Below, one piece after another: positions 2,416 through 54,367 of a DNA stretch of 64,000 nt (its first letter is position 1; each line of letters starts with the position of its first letter). The position numbers and the translations under genes are program-made. Origin of the DNA: Alphaproteobacteria bacterium (GTDB lineage: Bacteria; Pseudomonadota; Alphaproteobacteria; UBA9219). The notes below the pieces were generated by a model. It was not told where the DNA came from. It saw only the letters and a program-made list of their open reading frames with translations, and ran no database searches. The DNA lies in assembly GCA_009779745.1 (NCBI GenBank), contig WRDR01000006.1, positions 3,469 through 67,468 on the forward strand. The letters run 5' to 3'.

Positions 2416-3747
2416 ATGACCAGAAAATATTTCGGCACAGACGGTATAAGAGGCATTGCCAATACGGAGCCGATGACGGCTGATACTGCGATGAAGGTTG
2501 CTATGGCGGCAGCCGGGCTGTTCAGAAGAGGCGACTATAAGCACCGGGTCGTAATAGGCAAAGACACTAGGCTTTCAGGATATTTACTGGAGCCGGCTTT
2601 GACTTCCGGGTTTATTGCTAAGGGCATGGACGTTATTCTTTTGGGTCCTGTGCCGACTCCCGCAGTGTCTATGCTCACAAAGAGTCTGAGGGCTGATATG
2701 GGAGTCATGATTTCCGCTTCTCACAATCCCTATCAGGACAACGGAATAAAGCTGTTCGGTCCGGACGGGCTTAAGCTGTCGGACGAACTGGAAAAAAGCA
2801 TTGAAGAGCGCATGGAAGGCGACTTGTCGGCAGACAATGTGCTTTCTTCCGAGCTTGGAAGAGCCAGCCGTTTGGAAGACGCTGTAGGACGGTATGTGGA
2901 GTATGCCAAAGCCACTTTTAACGGAGCAAGACTGGACGGACTCAAAATAGTAGTGGATTGCGCAAACGGAGCTGCATACAAAGTTGCGCCCGAAGTGTTT
3001 TGGGAGTTGGGAGCCGAAGTTATATTGTTATCTGCCGCACCTAACGGAAAAAACATTAACCATAATTGCGGAGCTACTGCTACAAAGGCAATGCAGGAAG
3101 CTGTTGTTGCAAACAACGCAGACTTAGGAATAGCCTTAGACGGAGACGCGGACAGGCTTATTATGGCGGACGAGACCGGCAGGAAACTGGACGGAGACCA
3201 GTTGATAGCATTAGTCGCAAAGCACTGGGCTAAGCAGAACAAGCTGAAAAATAACAGCGTGGTGGTTACTCAGATGTCTAATATGGGGCTGGGAAAATTG
3301 CTGTCGTCCATAGGGGTGAAGCTGTATAAGACTGCGGTTGGCGACAGGTACGTTGTAGAAAAGATGCGGGAGATAGGAGCTAATCTCGGAGGCGAGCAGT
3401 CAGGGCATTTGATATTCAGCGATTATGCCTGTACCGGAGACGGAATAATTGCTGCGCTTCAAGTGTTGTCTATTGTGCGGAACAGCCAAGAGAAACTGAG
3501 TACTGCGTGCAATGTGTTTGAGCCAATACCGCAGGTTATGAAAAGCATTGCGGCGGACAGGAGTATTCTGGAGCAGAAAACAGTACAAGCAGCAATTGAC
3601 GCAGCAAAGAAAAGGCTTGGAGATAAAGGAGAGATTTCCGTGAGAGCCTCCGGAACAGAGAAACTAATACGAGTCATGGCGCAAGGCGAGGACGAAAAAC
3701 AGATTTCTATGGCAGTTGATGAAATTTGTGCGGTAATAAAGGCATAA
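2416..3747 (+). CDS. glmM: phosphoglucosamine mutase
   Basis: Active-site '[13 protein letters not shown]' and a GTDGIRG N-terminus in a 443 aa ORF. Confidence 0.9.
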
Positions 3748-3750
3748 AGT

Positions 3751-4413
3751 ATGCAAGAGAAACCTATAGTAATAGCCATAGACGGATTGTCTGCAAGCGG
3801 CAAAGGCACTCTTGCAAAGCGCATGGCAGAGTATTTTGATTTTGCATATCTGGATACCGGAATATTGTACAGAGCAGTCGGGCTTAAGGTTCTGGAAGCC
3901 GGCAAAACGGAACTGGCAGTGCAAATCGCAAAAGAACTGGACCTTTCAACGATTTCGGAGCTGTCCGGAAATGCAGAGCTGCGGTCTGAAAAAGTTGCTG
4001 TAGAGGCATCTAAGGTTGCGGCTATGGGGGAGGTGCGGCAGGCTCTTTTGCAGTTTCAAAAAGATTTTTGCGCAGCACCTCCGAACGGCAAAAAAGGAGC
4101 TGTTCTGGACGGACGGGATATTGGAAGCGTAATAGCTCCAGATGCCGATGTGAAATTGTTTATAACAGCATCGCTGGAAGCAAGAGCATTGCGCAGATAC
4201 AAAGAATTATTTCCTCACGCACCATATCAAGATATTGAATATCAACACATTTTTGCAGATATGAAAGCCAGAGACGAAAGAGATTCTCAGAGAACAGCAG
4301 CTCCTGTCAAAATCCCGGAAGATGCTCTTTTTATAGATACCTCTGATATGGGGATTGAGGAAGTTGTAAAAAAAGCCATAGAGTTTGCCGAGACAAAATT
4401 AAAGCTAAAATAA
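3751..4413 (+). CDS. cmk: cytidylate kinase
   Basis: P-loop 'IAIDGLSASGKGT' in a 220 aa ORF that lies upstream of rpsA. Confidence 0.85.
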   Translation: MQEKPIVIAIDGLSASGKGTLAKRMAEYFDFAYLDTGILYRAVGLKVLEAGKTELAVQIAKELDLSTISELSGNAELRSEKVAVEASKVAAMGEVRQALLQFQKDFCAAPPNGKKGAVLDGRDIGSVIAPDADVKLFITASLEARALRRYKELFPHAPYQDIEYQHIFADMKARDERDSQRTAAPVKIPEDALFIDTSDMGIEEVVKKAIEFAETKLKLK

Positions 4414-4429
4414 ACAAAGGAGAAAAGAC

Positions 4430-5246
4430 ATGAAAAAAGTAATGTTGGTGTTAGTTGTAGGACTATTATTAAGTGCCTGCTCTAGTGCTAGGATAGATAG
4501 TACTGCTAACATGTGCTATAAAACTATTACTACTTGTGCAGGGGCTCCTATAAATTATGGTGCTGATGGATGCATGGGAATAAGAAATCCTTATGCTGCA
4601 GCAGTTGTTCTAAATTATACTATGGCTGGCGGAGGCGGAGGCGGAACTCCAACAGGGCAAGGAGGAGGAGGAGGAAGCACTGCATTGTTCACCAATGATA
4701 GTATTGCCGATATTAGAATAGCCAGAGGAGGCAATATCGCTAGTGATGCTCAAACTGTTACCGGAACACTTACTTTTAATGCGGGCACCACATTATACGC
4801 CTTTGTAGGCGGAGGAGGCGGATATGACTGGTCAGCAGGAGGGGCTGGTTGGTTCGGTGGCAATTCTGGACACAGGGGGGGGGGCAGGAGGTTATAATGC
4901 TGCTGAGAGTGTTCAGGCAATCGGCTATGGATCCCGATTTAGAGGCGGGCATAATGGAACTAATTCGTACGGTGGAAGCGGATTGTTGGGAGGAGCCGGA
5001 AAGTCGACCGGAGATGGGGCAGGATATAATGGCGGAGGAGGATTCGGCAGTGGGGGAGGCTCAAACGGAGAAGCAGGAGGCTCAAACGGAGGGAATGGGT
5101 TGGGTGCCAGCGGAGGTCTTGGAGCAAACAACTGGTCAGCCGCAACATCATGGCCCAACGGTCCCGGCAAACATAATGGAACAGGAAACGGCGGTTTGAT
5201 AATATTAAGATACGTCAGCCCGACAGGTGCTTGCTCGTTATATTAA
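4430..5246 (+). CDS. glycine-rich lipoprotein. The reading frame is interrupted at a G10 tract. Reading frame 2 (ORF 4430-4897) and frame 0 (ORF 4824-5246) join across the tract
   Basis: Lipobox 'LLLSAC' signal peptide followed by GGGG-rich repeats. The two overlapping ORFs share the 4824-4897 overlap that contains the poly-G. The C-terminus 'GLGANNWSAATSWP...GNGGLIILRYVSPTGAC' is paralogous to 53006-54367. Confidence 0.6.
4875..4884. repeat. homopolymeric G10 tract inside the glycine-rich lipoprotein gene, where the frame switches
   Basis: 'cacagggggggggcagg' counted directly in the sequence. Confidence 0.8.
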
Positions 5247-41373: not shown

Positions 41374-44100
41374 TTAAAACCTCACCCTAACTCCCACATT
41401 CCCCGAAACGCCCTCATAAACAGAGCCTTTTTCATAAGACACATCGCCGTACATGTAAGCATTGTCTGTCAGCTGCGCATTTAGCCCGACAGATACTTCT
41501 CCGCCGACTCCGCTTACATCGGATTTCATGTTTGCGCCGGCAAATTTAATATTCGTTTTTCCCAGCCATTCATTGTATACGCCAAGCTCAACAAACGGCT
41601 TGATTTTGGATTTTTTCCCTTCCGGCAAATATGCGGCCTGCACGCGGAAGCTCGTCAGCAAGCTCTGCGTAGTATTATACTGTATGACGCTCGTTGCGCT
41701 TGTAACGGTCTGCTTTTTACCGGCATATGCGTATTGGAGTTCAGCTTTAGGCTCGATCAGGAATTGAGATTCATTCGCATAGGATTGTGCCCAAGCCGGC
41801 GCATCATAATACAGTGCCTTGCCGGCTTCAAGACTGCCGGTAATAAAATTACGGCGTGCGTCAAATGTTATAGGCTTTCCGGAAGCCAAAATATTCTTCA
41901 TGTCCATCATCACCCAAAAATGGCGCATTGTAGCATCGGCGAACCACCCGCTGTCGTTGAACCATGTGGCATAAAGTCCTGCGCTTGGAACATTGCCATG
42001 ACCTGAGCCGTCAAACTCGTTGTCTTGGTCGATTCGGATATTTCCTGCGTGCATATATCCGCCCATAGCACCGACATACAGCCTGCCTTGTTCTATGGGG
42101 ATTTCCGCATCAATGCCTGCTTCCATGCCGCCAAGGTTCATGCGGGCGGAGATTTTTTCATCTACGTTAAGGTGTTTTCCATATGCGCGCGCCCATAAGC
42201 CGGCTCCGTTGCCGCCGCTCTCAGAGCGTAAATCGCCGAGACGTTTGCGCAGTTCGTTCATGCCTGTTTTCACAACGGACAAGTGCAAAGCAGGCATATT
42301 CGCAATGGTTTTGCCGATGTTCGATTCTCCTCCTTGATTGAATCTGTAATATCCCGGTTGACCCTCGTTTTGCAGCGAAGTTATGGTATACTCATATGCT
42401 CCGGAGTCCAAAATAGTTTGCGTAGTCGTAAAGCCATAGCCGCCAATATCTCCGCCGAACACCTGCACATCGAATGTTTCCGCTGTCGGGCTGTTAAAGG
42501 CGTTAAAGCTGCTTACATTCAGCGTGCCGCTCCCGCTTCCTGTTGTGATATTGAATAAATCAGACGTGAACGCCGCGCCGTCCAAATCAATAAAAAAGTT
42601 GTTCACGCCTGCCGCAGTCAGCGAGGCAATACTAAAGGTGTTAACCTGATTGTTGATAGTATTGACCGCCATATTGTTCAAACTTAGTATTCCCAAATTG
42701 ACTGCCGCTGTATTCTGCCAGAGATTCAATGTCGAGTTGGAATAGTTGTTTCCCAGAGCGTTTTCAAAAAACTGTCCGTAGAAAGTAGTTGTACCGCCGG
42801 AAGCATTAAACGTGCCGGTAAAGTTGGTATTGAGGGCATTTGCTCCGAAAGTAAGTATGCCGCCGTTAGTCTTGTTGATAGCGGTTGTTGCGCCGATTGC
42901 TGCAGCATTGGCAAGACCGCCTTCAAAAACAGTTTCGCCTGCCGCACCGTTTATGTTTATGTTCAGAGTTGCGTTGGCGGTTCCGTTCAGATAAATATCA
43001 TTGTTGCCGCTTGAATCCGTATTGCCGGTAAACAAAGTTGTGCCGCCTGTAGTGGTAATGTTCATAGTAGCCTGAGCTGTTCCGCTTGCCTGCGTGTTAT
43101 GCACCTGAAAGTTTATTGCGCCGCCTAAACCGCCGGCAGTATTGGTCGAAAACTCAACATTGTCTCCTATATTCATAGTGTTGATATCAGTGCCGGTTGC
43201 AATGCTGTATATTCTGGAATAAATCGCTCCGCCTGTGCCGCTGGATTCATTGTTAGAGAAGGTTGTTCCGCTCGCAATAGTCAAAGTACTGTCGGCATTG
43301 CTTGTAGCCGAGGCATTGTAAAAATCCTTATAAATAGCACCGCCGCCATATCCGGTTCCGGTAGTTGAGACAGTATTTGTGTCGAAGGTTGCGTTATCGC
43401 CGATGCTTATCACGGAACCGCCTTGATTGCTTGTGTTGTATATGGATATTGCACCTCCTCCGACTCCGGCAAGAGTGTTGTTATTATAAAAATATGAGTT
43501 GGTGCCTATGGTCAAAAGTAAACTGTTTGCAACACCTGTTGTGCTGAAGGCTATGGCACCGCCGGTAGCTGTTGAATGGTTATTGTCAAAAGTTACTCTG
43601 TTGCCGATAACAAGAGAGGCAGGATTATAAACCGGCGGAGAACCGGAACTTCCGCCGCCTGTCCATATGGCTGCTCCGCCAGTGGTTCTGTAAAAATTTG
43701 AGAAAGTCAGTCCGTCTCCGATAGTAATAGTTTTGGCTACAGACGGGTCGTTTCTGATCACTAAATCGTTGAACAAACCGCCGCCGTCTAAAACAAACCC
43801 GTCTCCGAAGATAGAGTAGGCGGCAGCCGCCTGCTGCCAAGACCCTGCGCCGGTGTTTGGAATGCTGGCGGTAAAAGTAATGTTGTCTGTCAGCGTGATT
43901 GAGGTATCGCCTGTGGTCAGTGCCGTTTCAAGTTCGCTGAAAGTAGCAACGTTTGCTGCATATGCAATATTTATGCTGCCGATTAATGCGGCTGTTGACA
44001 TTGCAAGACCGCTTATTTTTGAGAACGCCATTTTCCCTCCCCTAATTTTGGTATGTGCGTTCAGTCTAATTTTCTGTTTTTTTGAAAACAATGCGTGCAT
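41374..44100 (-). CDS. autotransporter outer-membrane protein with a Pmp-like passenger (GGA[ILV] and FxxN repeats)
   Basis: Extended signal peptide, multiple 'GGAI' motifs (ATGGAIAF, VGGGAISIY, GGGAIYKDF, TGGAIYSRIY, GGLGGAINF) and 'FxxN' motifs (FSNN, FDNN, FYNN, FDTN, FSTN, FTGN). C-terminal beta-barrel ends '...VRVRF'. Confidence 0.7.
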   Translation of the reverse strand: MHALFSKKQKIRLNAHTKIRGGKMAFSKISGLAMSTAALIGSINIAYAANVATFSELETALTTGDTSITLTDNITFTASIPNTGAGSWQQAAAAYSIFGDGFVLDGGGLFNDLVIRNDPSVAKTITIGDGLTFSNFYRTTGGAAIWTGGGSSGSPPVYNPASLVIGNRVTFDNNHSTATGGAIAFSTTGVANSLLLTIGTNSYFYNNNTLAGVGGGAISIYNTSNQGGSVISIGDNATFDTNTVSTTGTGYGGGAIYKDFYNASATSNADSTLTIASGTTFSNNESSGTGGAIYSRIYSIATGTDINTMNIGDNVEFSTNTAGGLGGAINFQVHNTQASGTAQATMNITTTGGTTLFTGNTDSSGNNDIYLNGTANATLNININGAAGETVFEGGLANAAAIGATTAINKTNGGILTFGANALNTNFTGTFNASGGTTTFYGQFFENALGNNYSNSTLNLWQNTAAVNLGILSLNNMAVNTINNQVNTFSIASLTAAGVNNFFIDLDGAAFTSDLFNITTGSGSGTLNVSSFNAFNSPTAETFDVQVFGGDIGGYGFTTTQTILDSGAYEYTITSLQNEGQPGYYRFNQGGESNIGKTIANMPALHLSVVKTGMNELRKRLGDLRSESGGNGAGLWARAYGKHLNVDEKISARMNLGGMEAGIDAEIPIEQGRLYVGAMGGYMHAGNIRIDQDNEFDGSGHGNVPSAGLYATWFNDSGWFADATMRHFWVMMDMKNILASGKPITFDARRNFITGSLEAGKALYYDAPAWAQSYANESQFLIEPKAELQYAYAGKKQTVTSATSVIQYNTTQSLLTSFRVQAAYLPEGKKSKIKPFVELGVYNEWLGKTNIKFAGANMKSDVSGVGGEVSVGLNAQLTDNAYMYGDVSYEKGSVYEGVSGNVGVRVRF

Positions 44101-52715: not shown

Positions 52716-52799
52716 GTGTCGATGTATTCCCCTTTTGTCCTTTCCGCACAGAATAATAAAAAATTATAGCATTTACCGAAAATCTGATTTATAACTATC

Positions 52800-53005
52800 A
52801 ACGTGGCAGATGACTACTGCCATGAGGGTTAGACTCCTCGTACCAAGTTGCTCTACCAGTCGCAAACAAGGAGCGTGAAAATTTGCACCCCCAACCTTCG
52901 GTTGGGGGGCTGCAAAATAAAGCGGTCTGTCCGCCGAATATGCACACTATCTTGGTATAGGGTCTAACCTCCAACCGCCTCTAGTCAAGGCGAACGGAGG
53001 CTGTT
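52800..53005 (+). promoter_or_regulatory. structured 5' leader of the glycine-rich gene. Contains a UUCG-capped 9-bp helix (CCCCCAACC-UUCG-GGUUGGGGG) and a helix pairing CCUCC (52968-52972) with the SD GGAGG (52996-53000)
   Basis: Helices found by eye, with no covariation data. Function inferred. Confidence 0.3.
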
Positions 53006-54367
53006 ATGAATGTGAAGCGTGAAATCGAAAGCGGCATACACAAAGGTGCTGCGTTATATGCTTATGTAGGCGGAGGAGGCTCGGGCGGCCCGAGCGGCGG
53101 ATGGGCTGGCTGTGGAGCTGGGTGGAAAGGTGGGACAATGGTCTGTATGCCACAGGTAGGTGTTAGGAGTACTACATGCACCGGACCTCTTGCCGGCTCT
53201 CGGTTCGTGGGAGGTACTCCCGGAGTGGTGAGGTATGACGGAACGATTGTCGCCAACCCGGGCGGAAGAGGAGGAAGAGGAATGTCGGGTGGAGCAGCAG
53301 CATCTGCTGGCACGGGAGGAGGCGGCGGCGGATTCGGCAGCGGAGGGGGAGGAGGAAGAGCAGCAGGAGGCTCAAGCGGAGGAAATGGCGGAGGAAGCGG
53401 CGTGGGTCTTGGAGCAAATAACTGGGTAAGTGCAACAACGTGGCCCAGTGCTGCCGGCGGAACGAGTACATACGGAGGCAACGGCGGTCTTATAATGCTA
53501 AACTACATCACGCCGACCGGACAATGTTTGTTGGCTGAGGTGGTGAATGGTGCTTGCGGGACTGCTGTCGGAGTCGCAAGTGCTTCGGCACCGACTGCAA
53601 ACCGCTGCATCTCGGGAATCGCACTCGAAGCCAACGGCGATGAGGACGAAGGAACCACTTGGACATGGACGTGTTCTGGAGTCAACGGTGGCACCAGTCC
53701 AACCTGCACGGCACCTCGTATAGTCAACGGTACCTGCGGAAATCTTGACGGAGTCGCAACTGCCGCTGCTCCGGAAAATGCGGCTGCAGTATTAGAGGAA
53801 GAAATTGAAATAACGCCTGCAAAGACACTCTGTGCAACCGGTGCTGCAACCACAGTCACGGATACCGGAACAGCATTCACTTGGAGCTGCAGCGGCATAA
53901 ATGGCGGAACTGCCAGTACTACTTGCTCTGCTCCTAAGATGATAGACGGTGTGTGCGGTGCTTCTGCTTATCCTAATATTACTACCGGAGTAACTTCTGC
54001 GCCAACGGCAAATCTTTGCTCTGCCGGAAATCCTTCTACAACTAATCCGCCTGCTGCAGGAGGAAACACAACCGCAAGTACTGCCGCACCAAATACTGCC
54101 ATTAACTATAGTTGGTCATGCACAGGGTTGTACGGCGGAACTAACACGAACTGCTTGGCTTTAAGGCGCGTGAACGGAAGCTGCGGCACTGCTACAAGCG
54201 GCAGCAGCAGCACGCCTCCTACTACTAACCTTTGCGCTAACGGAAGAGCAAGCGGCGTGACAACAAACACCTCGACATATACTTGGTCTTGTTATGGTAT
54301 AAACAACGGAACGAATGCGAATTGCTCTAAGCCTAGGGGGGGATTTGATATATACAACCCTTTCTAG
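53006..54367 (+). CDS. glycine-rich protein paralogous to 4430-5246, with four tandem roughly 60-70 aa Cys-rich modules (VNGxCG...AP...NLC...TW(T/S)CxGxNGGT...C.AP) and no signal peptide
   Basis: 'GLGANNWVSATTWP...GNGGLIMLNYITPTGQC' aligns to copy 1. Repeat modules found by eye. Confidence 0.65.
   Translation: MNVKREIESGIHKGAALYAYVGGGGSGGPSGGWAGCGAGWKGGTMVCMPQVGVRSTTCTGPLAGSRFVGGTPGVVRYDGTIVANPGGRGGRGMSGGAAASAGTGGGGGGFGSGGGGGRAAGGSSGGNGGGSGVGLGANNWVSATTWPSAAGGTSTYGGNGGLIMLNYITPTGQCLLAEVVNGACGTAVGVASASAPTANRCISGIALEANGDEDEGTTWTWTCSGVNGGTSPTCTAPRIVNGTCGNLDGVATAAAPENAAAVLEEEIEITPAKTLCATGAATTVTDTGTAFTWSCSGINGGTASTTCSAPKMIDGVCGASAYPNITTGVTSAPTANLCSAGNPSTTNPPAAGGNTTASTAAPNTAINYSWSCTGLYGGTNTNCLALRRVNGSCGTATSGSSSTPPTTNLCANGRASGVTTNTSTYTWSCYGINNGTNANCSKPRGGFDIYNPF

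What the first reader, a model, noticed from the sequence alone, without database searches (positions are those of the whole stretch)
4430..5246. Glycine-rich lipoprotein interrupted at a G10 homopolymer is a candidate for slipped-strand phase variation
A lipobox-containing ORF (4430-4897) and a second ORF (4824-5246) in another reading frame overlap exactly over a run of ten G at 4875-4884. Both parts are homologous to one continuous paralog at 53006-54367. Tracts of eight or more G or C are classic slipped-strand switches in Neisseria, Haemophilus, Campylobacter and Bordetella, so a one-base change in tract length would restore the frame. Given the paralog alignment ('LYAFVGGGGGYDWSAGGAGWFGG' versus 'LYAYVGGGGSGGPSGGWAGCGAGWKGG') the gene looks switched OFF in this sequence state. 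It is also inserted into the otherwise conserved cmk-rpsA junction.
Basis: partly seen in the sequence, partly recalled or inferred. Interest (0 to 1): 0.75.

Follow-up and report, generated by a model that had tools for sequence, protein, structure and literature searches.

The report
G10-interrupted glycine-rich lipoprotein gene
A surface-type lipoprotein gene in an uncultured alphaproteobacterium is split by a run of ten G, and losing one G would restore it, so it is a credible but unproven on/off switch of a well-known kind.

Summary
G10 at 4875-4884 is the only G or C run longer than 7 in 64 kb. It sits where ORF1 (4430-4897, lipobox LSAC) meets the ORF2 frame (to 5246). G9 or G12 fuses them into a 271/272-aa protein. 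G8 or G11 gives a nonsense extension. An intact paralog on another contig (P0002) aligns across the junction in two frames. A 21-sequence alignment gives one confident fold (pLDDT 88.7) spanning both halves. The domain is rare (46 clusters among 1.84 billion representatives), almost always C-terminal and unannotated. It weakly resembles the ALK glycine-rich domain and phage glycine-rich tail proteins.

Phase variation is not shown. The five assembled contigs read here, from four assemblies or runs, all carry G10 and the four compared are 100% identical to the window, so they probably sample one population. No fused version exists in the protein collections, no close relative was found, and reads were not available. 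Permuting synonymous codons gives a run of at least 9 G in 3.3% of trials.

Best reading (0.5): a real, intrinsically hypermutable tract with the gene OFF. Rivals are a recent pseudogene, a consensus length error, and recoding. It would be a new member of a known kind, of modest interest.

The parts
4417..4422 (+). Shine-Dalgarno-like AAGGAG, 7 nt before the ATG and 3 nt after the cmk stop codon (4411-4413)
   Evidence: Read directly from the sequence. No terminator-like site lies between cmk and the gene. Co-transcription with cmk is inferred, not shown.
4430..4480 (+). Lipoprotein signal peptide: MKK, a hydrophobic core, then lipobox L-S-A-C with Cys17
   Evidence: Translation. The match to the [LVI][ASTVI][GAS]C rule is by sequence pattern and established knowledge. 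No predictor was run.
4430..4897 (+). ORF1: the N-terminal 155 codons as read in the G10 state. The last 5 codons (GGRRL) are out of frame, ending at TAA 4895-4897.
   Evidence: Identical to P0001 (FWF23_01200; MCL2473512.1 and MCL2505256.1).
4875..4884 (+). G10 homopolymer, the frameshift site. In the restored G9 frame it reads AGG GGG GGG GCA (R-G-G-A).
   Evidence: It falls in a gap-rich, variable-length stretch of the family alignment. It is also the lowest-confidence part of the model: pLDDT is 66 and 52 for residue blocks 121-130 and 131-140.
4885..5246 (+). C-terminal half of the gene in the ORF2 frame (codons congruent to 0 mod 3), ending GGLIILRYVSPTGACSLY, stop 5244-5246
   Evidence: It keeps the family-conserved motifs GGGGFGSGGG, GGLGANNW, GNGGLIIL.Y and the near-terminal Cys.
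4897..5199 (+). 100-aa ORF called by public pipelines in the third, non-homologous frame. It is an annotation artefact and the G8/G11 read-through frame.
   Evidence: Gene calls. P0060. Translation.
53006..54367 (+). In-window paralog (P0004, 453 aa): the C-terminal half of the Gly-rich domain followed by five Cys-containing repeats. It has no signal peptide and no N-terminal half.

Best explanation
Window 4430-5246 is a single gene of about 271 codons. It encodes a lipoprotein whose mature part is one glycine-rich domain of about 245 aa. The domain is predicted to be a jelly-roll beta-sandwich plus an ordered polyglycine-rich region.

In this sequence the gene is interrupted by a frameshift inside a G10 tract, so translation ends after 155 aa. 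That product holds only half of the domain and is presumably non-functional.

A 10-G run is intrinsically prone to slipped-strand mispairing during replication. The locus is therefore expected to toggle between three states:
- OFF (G10), the truncated product.
- ON (G9 or G12), the full-length lipoprotein.
- A nonsense-extended state (G8 or G11).

This would make it a simple-sequence phase-variable (contingency) gene for a cell-envelope protein, with OFF as the majority state in the sampled population.

Shown: the tract, the frame arithmetic, the unity and integrity of the gene, and the family and fold. Inferred: that tract length actually varies, that switching is used biologically, and that the protein is surface-exposed.
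For: - The G10 tract and the frame arithmetic are confirmed.
- The intact paralog P0002 gives two-frame HSPs that meet at the tract.
- The fused protein is colinear with P0002 from the CY..T.C motif to the C-terminal GLII.RY..P.G.C.L. It keeps the invariant or near-invariant columns of a 21-member domain alignment on both sides of the tract.
- AlphaFold2 on that alignment gives one compact domain spanning both halves (pLDDT 88.7, pTM 0.89). With only 4 sequences the model was poor (pLDDT 37.5).
- No other disabling lesion lies downstream: the ORF2 frame has no stop from the tract to its stop at 5244-5246.
- The tract lies in a variable-length, low-confidence loop, where G9 versus G12 (one Gly more or less) should be tolerated.
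- GGG is a minority Gly codon: 10 of 75 in the gene and 14.5% in 29 window genes. The only adjacent GGG-GGG pair is in the tract.
- The window is compact (about 89% in ORFs), and this is the only pair of adjacent same-strand ORFs overlapping by more than 41 nt in the ORF tiling. The genome does not look pseudogene-rich.
- G10 recurs in five contigs from four assemblies or runs. That argues against a one-off assembly error.
- In N. meningitidis deep sequencing, homopolymeric tracts of 8 or more nt were predominantly variable. G/C tracts dominated the strong phase-variable candidates, which mostly concern surface determinants (PMC5084427).
Against: - No tract-length polymorphism was seen. Every contig read here carries G10. 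The look-up via RpsA does not depend on tract length. It found 4 contigs, one shown and three listed as similar places, so all share the same neighbouring proteins.
- No fused or alternatively extended protein exists among 5.8 billion clusters or 1.84 billion representatives.
- The four contigs compared with the window are 100% identical to it. They probably sample one population, so between-strain comparison was impossible.
- Only one G/C tract of 8 or more occurs in about 80 kb of this genome. There is no sign of a genome-wide contingency repertoire.
- Given the protein sequence and codon usage, a run of at least 9 G arises in 3.3% of synonymous permutations. An accidental tract in a Gly-rich gene family is therefore not far-fetched.
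- Mismatch-repair status is unknown. No mutS or mutL was found among the five large window ORFs scanned.
Confidence: 0.5

Rival explanations
1. It is a recently fixed pseudogene. A +1 insertion in a chance G9 run of a Gly-rich gene inactivated a dispensable paralog. The tract has no regulatory role and the gene is on its way to decay.
For: - All consensus sequences are OFF and identical.
- The genome has other family copies, P0002 intact and P0004 truncated, so there is redundancy and evidence of family decay.
- A run of at least 9 G arises by chance in 3.3% of codon permutations.
- No other SSR loci were seen in about 80 kb.
Against: - There is no second lesion, and all family-conserved motifs are kept downstream. 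Any inactivation is therefore very recent.
- A G10 run reverts at high frequency on physical grounds. A 'fixed' OFF state would still throw off ON variants.
- The window is otherwise free of split genes.
Confidence: 0.25
2. It is a consensus length error. The true tract is G9 (or G12) and the gene is intact. Illumina reads and assemblers miscount a long poly-G run.
For: - Homopolymer length is the commonest type of consensus error (general knowledge).
- Poly-G artefacts are present in these data sets, for example C16 at the tip of a MEGAHIT contig in L005.
- Two assemblies break 85-110 nt after the tract, at window 4969 and 4994. Paralog repeats do not explain these breaks, because no 17-mers or longer are shared. 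This hints at poor read support just downstream.
- A homolog, P0024, looks frameshifted inside its Gly-rich region.
Against: - The same G10 was obtained by different assemblers and pipelines (MEGAHIT-style k141 contigs, JGI, Logan). It came from at least two runs, SRR10512950 and SRR10512951, and appears in two NCBI protein records.
- A random miscount would not be this reproducible. Only a systematic bias could explain it.
Confidence: 0.12
3. It is recoding. The G10 allele is the functional form and the full-length protein is made by programmed +1 ribosomal frameshifting, or by transcriptional slippage (loss of one G in the mRNA) on the G run.
For: - The needed shift is +1, and GGG-G allows perfect re-pairing of tRNA-Gly.
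- An AGGAGG motif and a 0-frame stop follow within 4 codons.
- All assemblies agree on G10.
Against: - The stop is 4 codons downstream, not at the shift site.
- AGG is not rare here: 129 of 671 Arg codons, 9.5 per 1000. The hungry-codon argument therefore fails.
- The SD-like AGGAGG lies downstream of the run, not upstream as in prfB.
- Transcriptional slippage is best documented on A/T runs (general knowledge).
- No orthologs are available to show that a shift site is conserved.
Confidence: 0.05

Closest known systems
Poly-G/C simple-sequence contingency loci (for example Neisseria opc, pilC and lgt genes; Campylobacter jejuni poly-G genes; Haemophilus and Helicobacter homopolymeric-tract genes)
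   Same: A G run of 8 or more lies inside the coding region of a cell-envelope protein gene. The gene shows an otherwise intact 'OFF' allele. Tracts of 8 or more are the ones found variable in N. meningitidis (PMC5084427).
   Different: No length polymorphism has been observed here. The organism is an uncultured alphaproteobacterial MAG whose Cmk shares no more than 53% identity with any species representative. No repertoire of other tracts is visible. Mismatch-repair status and switching rate are unknown.
ALK/LTK extracellular glycine-rich domain (PDB 7nx3, 7ls0, 7lrz) and phage 'glycine-rich domain-containing' tail proteins (cyanophage Pam3 fibre 7ypx, Bxb1 tail tip 9d93, BFVD entries)
Phase-variable lipoproteins regulated by homopolymeric tracts (for example the Mycoplasma Vlp/Vsa systems; cited from general knowledge)
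   Same: A lipoprotein from a small paralogous family carries a homopolymeric tract as the candidate switch.
   Different: In those systems the tract is often in the promoter, or the switching is by recombination. Here the tract is intragenic and acts on translation. The paralogs share no DNA stretches of 17 nt or more, so cassette-type gene conversion is not supported.

Membership tests
Simple-sequence (slipped-strand) phase-variable gene | Homopolymeric G/C tract of about 8 nt or more within the ORF or its promoter | tested here: met
   G10 at 4875-4884 inside the coding region. It is the only G/C run longer than 7 in 64 kb.
Simple-sequence (slipped-strand) phase-variable gene | Changes in tract length switch between a full-length and a truncated reading frame | tested here: met
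   G9 and G12 give 271/272 aa. G10 gives 155 aa. G8 and G11 give 255/256 aa with a non-homologous tail.
Simple-sequence (slipped-strand) phase-variable gene | Tract length is polymorphic within a population or between strains | tested here: inconclusive
   Five contigs from four assemblies or runs all carry G10, as do two NCBI protein records. No fused variant exists in the protein collections. However, the four contigs compared are 100% identical to the window and probably sample one population.
Simple-sequence (slipped-strand) phase-variable gene | Reversible, high-frequency ON/OFF switching of the phenotype | not testable with these tools
   This needs culture, single-cell work or deep read data.
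Bacterial lipoprotein (Lgt/LspA substrate) | N-terminal basic n-region, a hydrophobic h-region, and a lipobox [LVI][ASTVI][GAS]C | tested here: met
   MKKVMLVLVVGLLLSAC has LSAC with Cys17. This is a pattern match only; no dedicated predictor was run. NCBIfam gave only a sub-threshold match of residues 1-33 to the Cor lipoprotein signal region (12.1 bits against a cut-off of 31).
ALK/LTK-type glycine-rich domain (Pfam Gly_rich) and phage glycine-rich domain | Significant match to the family's sequence profile | tested here: not met
   No Pfam family matched at E <= 1 for the fused protein and the in-window paralog. None matched the Gly-rich domain at E <= 0.1 for 10 homologs. The profile search of PDB sequences returned only compositional matches.
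ALK/LTK-type glycine-rich domain (Pfam Gly_rich) and phage glycine-rich domain | TNF-like jelly roll combined with an ordered polyglycine subdomain | tested here: inconclusive
Decaying pseudogene | More than one disabling lesion, or loss of conserved residues | tested here: not met
   There is a single frameshift. The downstream frame is open to its stop at 5244-5246, and the conserved family motifs are retained.
Programmed +1 ribosomal frameshift site (prfB-like) | A slippery codon with a stop or hungry codon in the A site, an upstream SD-like stimulator, and conservation in orthologs | tested here: not met
   The 0-frame stop is 4 codons after the run. AGG is a common codon. AGGAGG lies downstream of the run. 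No orthologs are available.

The most novel reading that the evidence does not exclude
The G10 tract is a genuine contingency switch in a deep-branching, uncultured alphaproteobacterium. It gates expression of an outer-membrane lipoprotein built from a previously undescribed bacterial domain family. That family would be a TNF-like sandwich plus a polyglycine-II lattice, structurally akin to the ALK glycine-rich domain and to phage receptor-binding glycine-rich domains. On this reading, a rare ligand-binding or adhesin module is under stochastic ON/OFF control, perhaps to evade phage or host recognition.
Probability: 0.3. Interest if true: 0.5.

Novelty: new member of a known kind. Interest (0 to 1): 0.35.

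Why it matters
If tract length really varies, this extends classical poly-G phase variation, known mainly from a few cultured pathogens, to an uncultured alphaproteobacterial lineage seen only in metagenomes. It would also mark the lipoprotein as a probable exposed, selected surface determinant.

Two results stand independently of the switch:
- The work defines a rare, unannotated C-terminal glycine-rich domain. It occurs in 46 clusters among 1.84 billion representatives, folds confidently, and weakly resembles the ALK glycine-rich domain and phage tail proteins.
- Public annotations of this locus are wrong. They record a 155-aa stub plus a 100-aa ORF in a spurious frame.

If the tract is fixed or miscounted, the finding is an ordinary frameshifted or mis-assembled gene.

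Tried and rejected
- A metagenome-contig scan for both flanks separated by 6-15 nt, meant to catch any tract length, gave 0 hits. The pattern works on the window, so the collection simply lacks this organism.
- The search for related loci with the 4-sequence alignment A1 in metagenome contigs gave one distant, partial locus (L090), uninformative for the tract.
- A genome-contig scan with Cmk found no close relative (best 50-53% identity). It was used only for cmk-rpsA gap statistics.
- Pfam, NCBIfam and PDB-sequence searches returned nothing meaningful.
- The first structure prediction, with 4 sequences, was useless (pLDDT 37.5).
- The afdb50 fold library was unavailable.
- A viral-contig scan with the 21-sequence domain alignment A2 found no relative.
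- Literature searches for the sample, run and contig identifiers found nothing, so the sampled environment is not established here.
- The contig breaks at window 4969 and 4994 cannot be explained by paralog repeats, because no 17-mers or longer are shared.
- Cassette-type gene conversion among paralogs was rejected for the same reason.
- AGG-AGG hungry-codon frameshifting was rejected because AGG is common.

Full report
**1. The observation**

The window has ten consecutive G at 4875-4884. Over 64 kb (44.7% G+C), no other G run exceeds 7 and no C run exceeds 6.

ORF1 (4430-4897, 155 aa) begins MKKVMLVLVVGLLLSAC. This has a basic n-region, a hydrophobic core and a lipobox LSAC with Cys17. It is preceded by AAGGAG (4417-4422), three bases after the cmk stop. 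A second frame is open across the tract and ends at 5246.

Editing the tract in silico gives the following:
- G9 gives a 271-aa ORF and G12 a 272-aa ORF.
- G10 terminates at TAA 4895-4897.
- G8 and G11 enter the third frame and give a 255/256-aa protein with an unrelated acidic tail.

The frame is therefore restored by losing one G (or gaining two), not by gaining one.

**2. It is one gene**

The fused protein was used to search 5.8 billion protein clusters. It found only its own 155-aa stub (P0001), a 426-aa protein of the same MAG on another contig (P0002), and a partial 163-aa protein (P0003).

P0002 is intact. It has a signal peptide, two Cys-containing repeats, and then a domain colinear with the whole mature part of the fused window protein. 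tblastn of P0002 against the window gives two HSPs in different frames that abut at the tract (residues 146-286 on 4499-4879; residues 272-426 on 4875-5240). This is the classic signature of a single frameshift.

It lacks the signal peptide and the N-terminal half of the domain.

**3. The family and the fold**

A profile search of 1.84 billion representatives found only 46 clusters at E <= 1e-3. In almost all of them the ~260-aa domain is at the extreme C-terminus of secreted proteins with assorted N-terminal modules, for example five He_PIG Ig domains in P0011.

The domain consensus runs as follows:
- It starts at C.K.VT and continues through Y.MVGGGGG...GGGGGSSAI and YVGGGGG...GGGG[AS]G.FGG.
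- It then passes through GGGGGGFG[GS]GGG and GGLGAN.W.
- It ends GGNAGLVIL.Y..P.G.CSL.

No Pfam, NCBIfam or PDB-sequence match exists.

With a 21-sequence alignment, AlphaFold2 gives a confident single domain (pLDDT 88.7, pTM 0.89). It has eight beta-strands plus about 130 residues that are confidently placed but carry almost no DSSP-assigned helix or strand. With only four sequences the model was unusable.

Fold searches gave weak but consistent results:
- Foldseek against the PDB is not significant.
- Foldseek against BFVD puts phage 'glycine-rich domain-containing' and minor tail proteins on top (E 1e-4 to 1e-2, low TM-scores).
- No family member was found in viral contigs.

I therefore describe the domain as resembling the ALK glycine-rich domain and phage glycine-rich architecture, not as a member of those families.

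The tract-encoded residues (R149-G150-G151) fall in a gap-rich, variable-length stretch of the alignment. They also fall in the least confident part of the model. One glycine more or less, as between G9 and G12, should be tolerated there.

**4. Is the tract more than chance?**

At window level it is a clear outlier. Within the gene, GGG is a minority glycine codon: 10 of 75 in the gene and 14.5% in 29 window genes. The only adjacent GGG-GGG pair is in the tract.

However, permuting synonymous codons within the gene yields a G run of at least 9 in 3.3% of 20,000 trials. In a family of Gly-rich genes, an accidental tract is therefore possible.

**5. Is it variable?**

This is the crux, and it could not be shown.

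- Five contigs were read here: ENA ERZ27257304, JGI 3300010882, ENA ERZ27257295, Logan SRR10512950 and Logan SRR10512951. All carry G10.
- The first four were compared with the window and are 100% identical to it over 3.8-10.9 kb.
- The 155-aa product has two NCBI accessions, MCL2473512.1 and MCL2505256.1.
- The look-up through RpsA does not depend on tract length. It found four contigs, one shown and three listed as similar places, so all share the same neighbouring proteins.
- No fused (G9/G12) or extended (G8/G11) protein exists in the collections.

This reproducibility argues against a one-off assembly error. But the sequences evidently sample one population, and consensus contigs hide minority variants.

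Two assemblies break 85-110 nt after the tract, at window 4969 and 4994. Paralog repeats do not explain these breaks, because no 17-mers or longer are shared. The cause is unknown.

No close relative could be found. The best Cmk identity among 185,579 species representatives is 50-53%, and the two metagenome scans found nothing useful.

**6. Context**

The gene starts 16 nt after cmk and lies 270 nt before rpsA. No terminator-like site was predicted on either side.

Among 80 alphaproteobacterial cmk loci, 59 have rpsA downstream. In 50 of those 59 the gap is under 700 nt (median about 240). The gap here is 1103 nt, and nine others also carry inserts. The 'insert in a conserved junction' reading is therefore reasonable but not exceptional.

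The window is about 89% in ORFs. In the ORF tiling, this is the only pair of adjacent same-strand ORFs that overlap by more than 41 nt, so the genome is not visibly decaying.

**7. Explanations**

- Best (0.5): the tract is real and intrinsically hypermutable, and the gene is a slipped-strand ON/OFF locus caught OFF. In N. meningitidis, tracts of 8 or more were predominantly variable, and G/C tracts dominate the strong candidates, which mostly concern surface determinants (PMC5084427).
- Recent fixed pseudogene (0.25). This is physically the same state but without biological use.
- Consensus length error with an intact G9 gene (0.12).
- Recoding by +1 frameshifting or transcriptional slippage (0.05). 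This is disfavoured because AGG is a common codon, the 0-frame stop is 4 codons away, and the SD-like AGGAGG lies downstream of the run.

**8. Verdict**

If real, this is a new member of a known kind: an intragenic poly-G contingency locus. Interest is modest at 0.35.

Two side-results are useful:
- A rare, confidently folding and unannotated glycine-rich C-terminal domain family.
- A mis-annotation in public records, namely a 155-aa stub plus a 100-aa ORF in a spurious frame.

Noticed in passing
window 52716-53005: The 290-nt spacer between dnaG and the paralog folds unusually well as RNA (MFE -91.7 kcal/mol, z = -3.7). It has a long imperfect inverted repeat (about 52823-52846 with 52952-52972) and a 9-bp GC hairpin (52888-52908). 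It gives a sub-threshold, full-length Rfam match to sRNA-Xcc1 (RF02221) at 52900-52984 (+): 33.4 bits against a gathering score of 53, E 3.6e-4. No other copy occurs in the window or in L005/L006.
   Followed up: partly
window 53006-54367: The paralog P0004 has only the C-terminal half of the Gly-rich domain and no signal peptide. Five ~55-60-aa Cys-containing repeats (G.CG...W.W.C.G.NGG...C) follow it. In P0002 and P0005 such repeats sit N-terminal to the domain instead. This may be a truncated or rearranged family member. A G7 run lies at 54336-54342 near its 3' end.
   Followed up: partly
window 4897-5199: Public gene calls (JGI, ENA, Logan) annotate a 100-aa ORF (P0060) in the third frame downstream of the tract. 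The genuine C-terminal half, in the ORF2 frame, is not annotated anywhere. Gly-rich GGN runs keep all three frames open.
   Followed up: yes
L005 position 1-16 (ENA ERZ27257304 k141_372104, contig end): The contig tip is a C16 run, typical of poly-G read artefacts at assembly ends. It shows that such artefacts exist in these data sets, although not inside contigs.
   Followed up: no
L003 end (window 4994) and L004 end (window 4969): Two independent assemblies break 85-110 nt downstream of the G10 tract. No 17-mers or longer are shared with the paralogs, so repeats do not explain the breaks. The cause is unknown; it could be a coverage drop after poly-G or local heterogeneity.
   Followed up: partly
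P0024 (homolog from the representative search): The middle of its Gly-rich domain reads as Ala/Arg/Pro-rich sequence and then returns to the family motif. This suggests a pair of compensating frameshifts, either an assembly error or real, in another family member.
   Followed up: no
window 41374-44100 (-): A 907-aa protein with a C-terminal autotransporter beta-domain (PF03797, E 4e-27). It is another envelope or surface protein in the same window.
   Followed up: no
L090 1-4166 (Ga0181520_10000675): This is the only metagenome locus with a family match (59% identity to the C-terminal 45 residues). Its first ~4 kb has several Gly/Ala-rich stretches open in multiple frames and a G8 run at 3434. 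It may hold tandem family members.
   Followed up: no
L005 6824-9171: The intact paralog P0002 sits directly downstream of a MacA/MacB-type ABC efflux pair. It overlaps by 4 nt a downstream 356-aa gene with a weak DUF5685 match, which suggests an operon context different from the cmk-rpsA copy.
   Followed up: no
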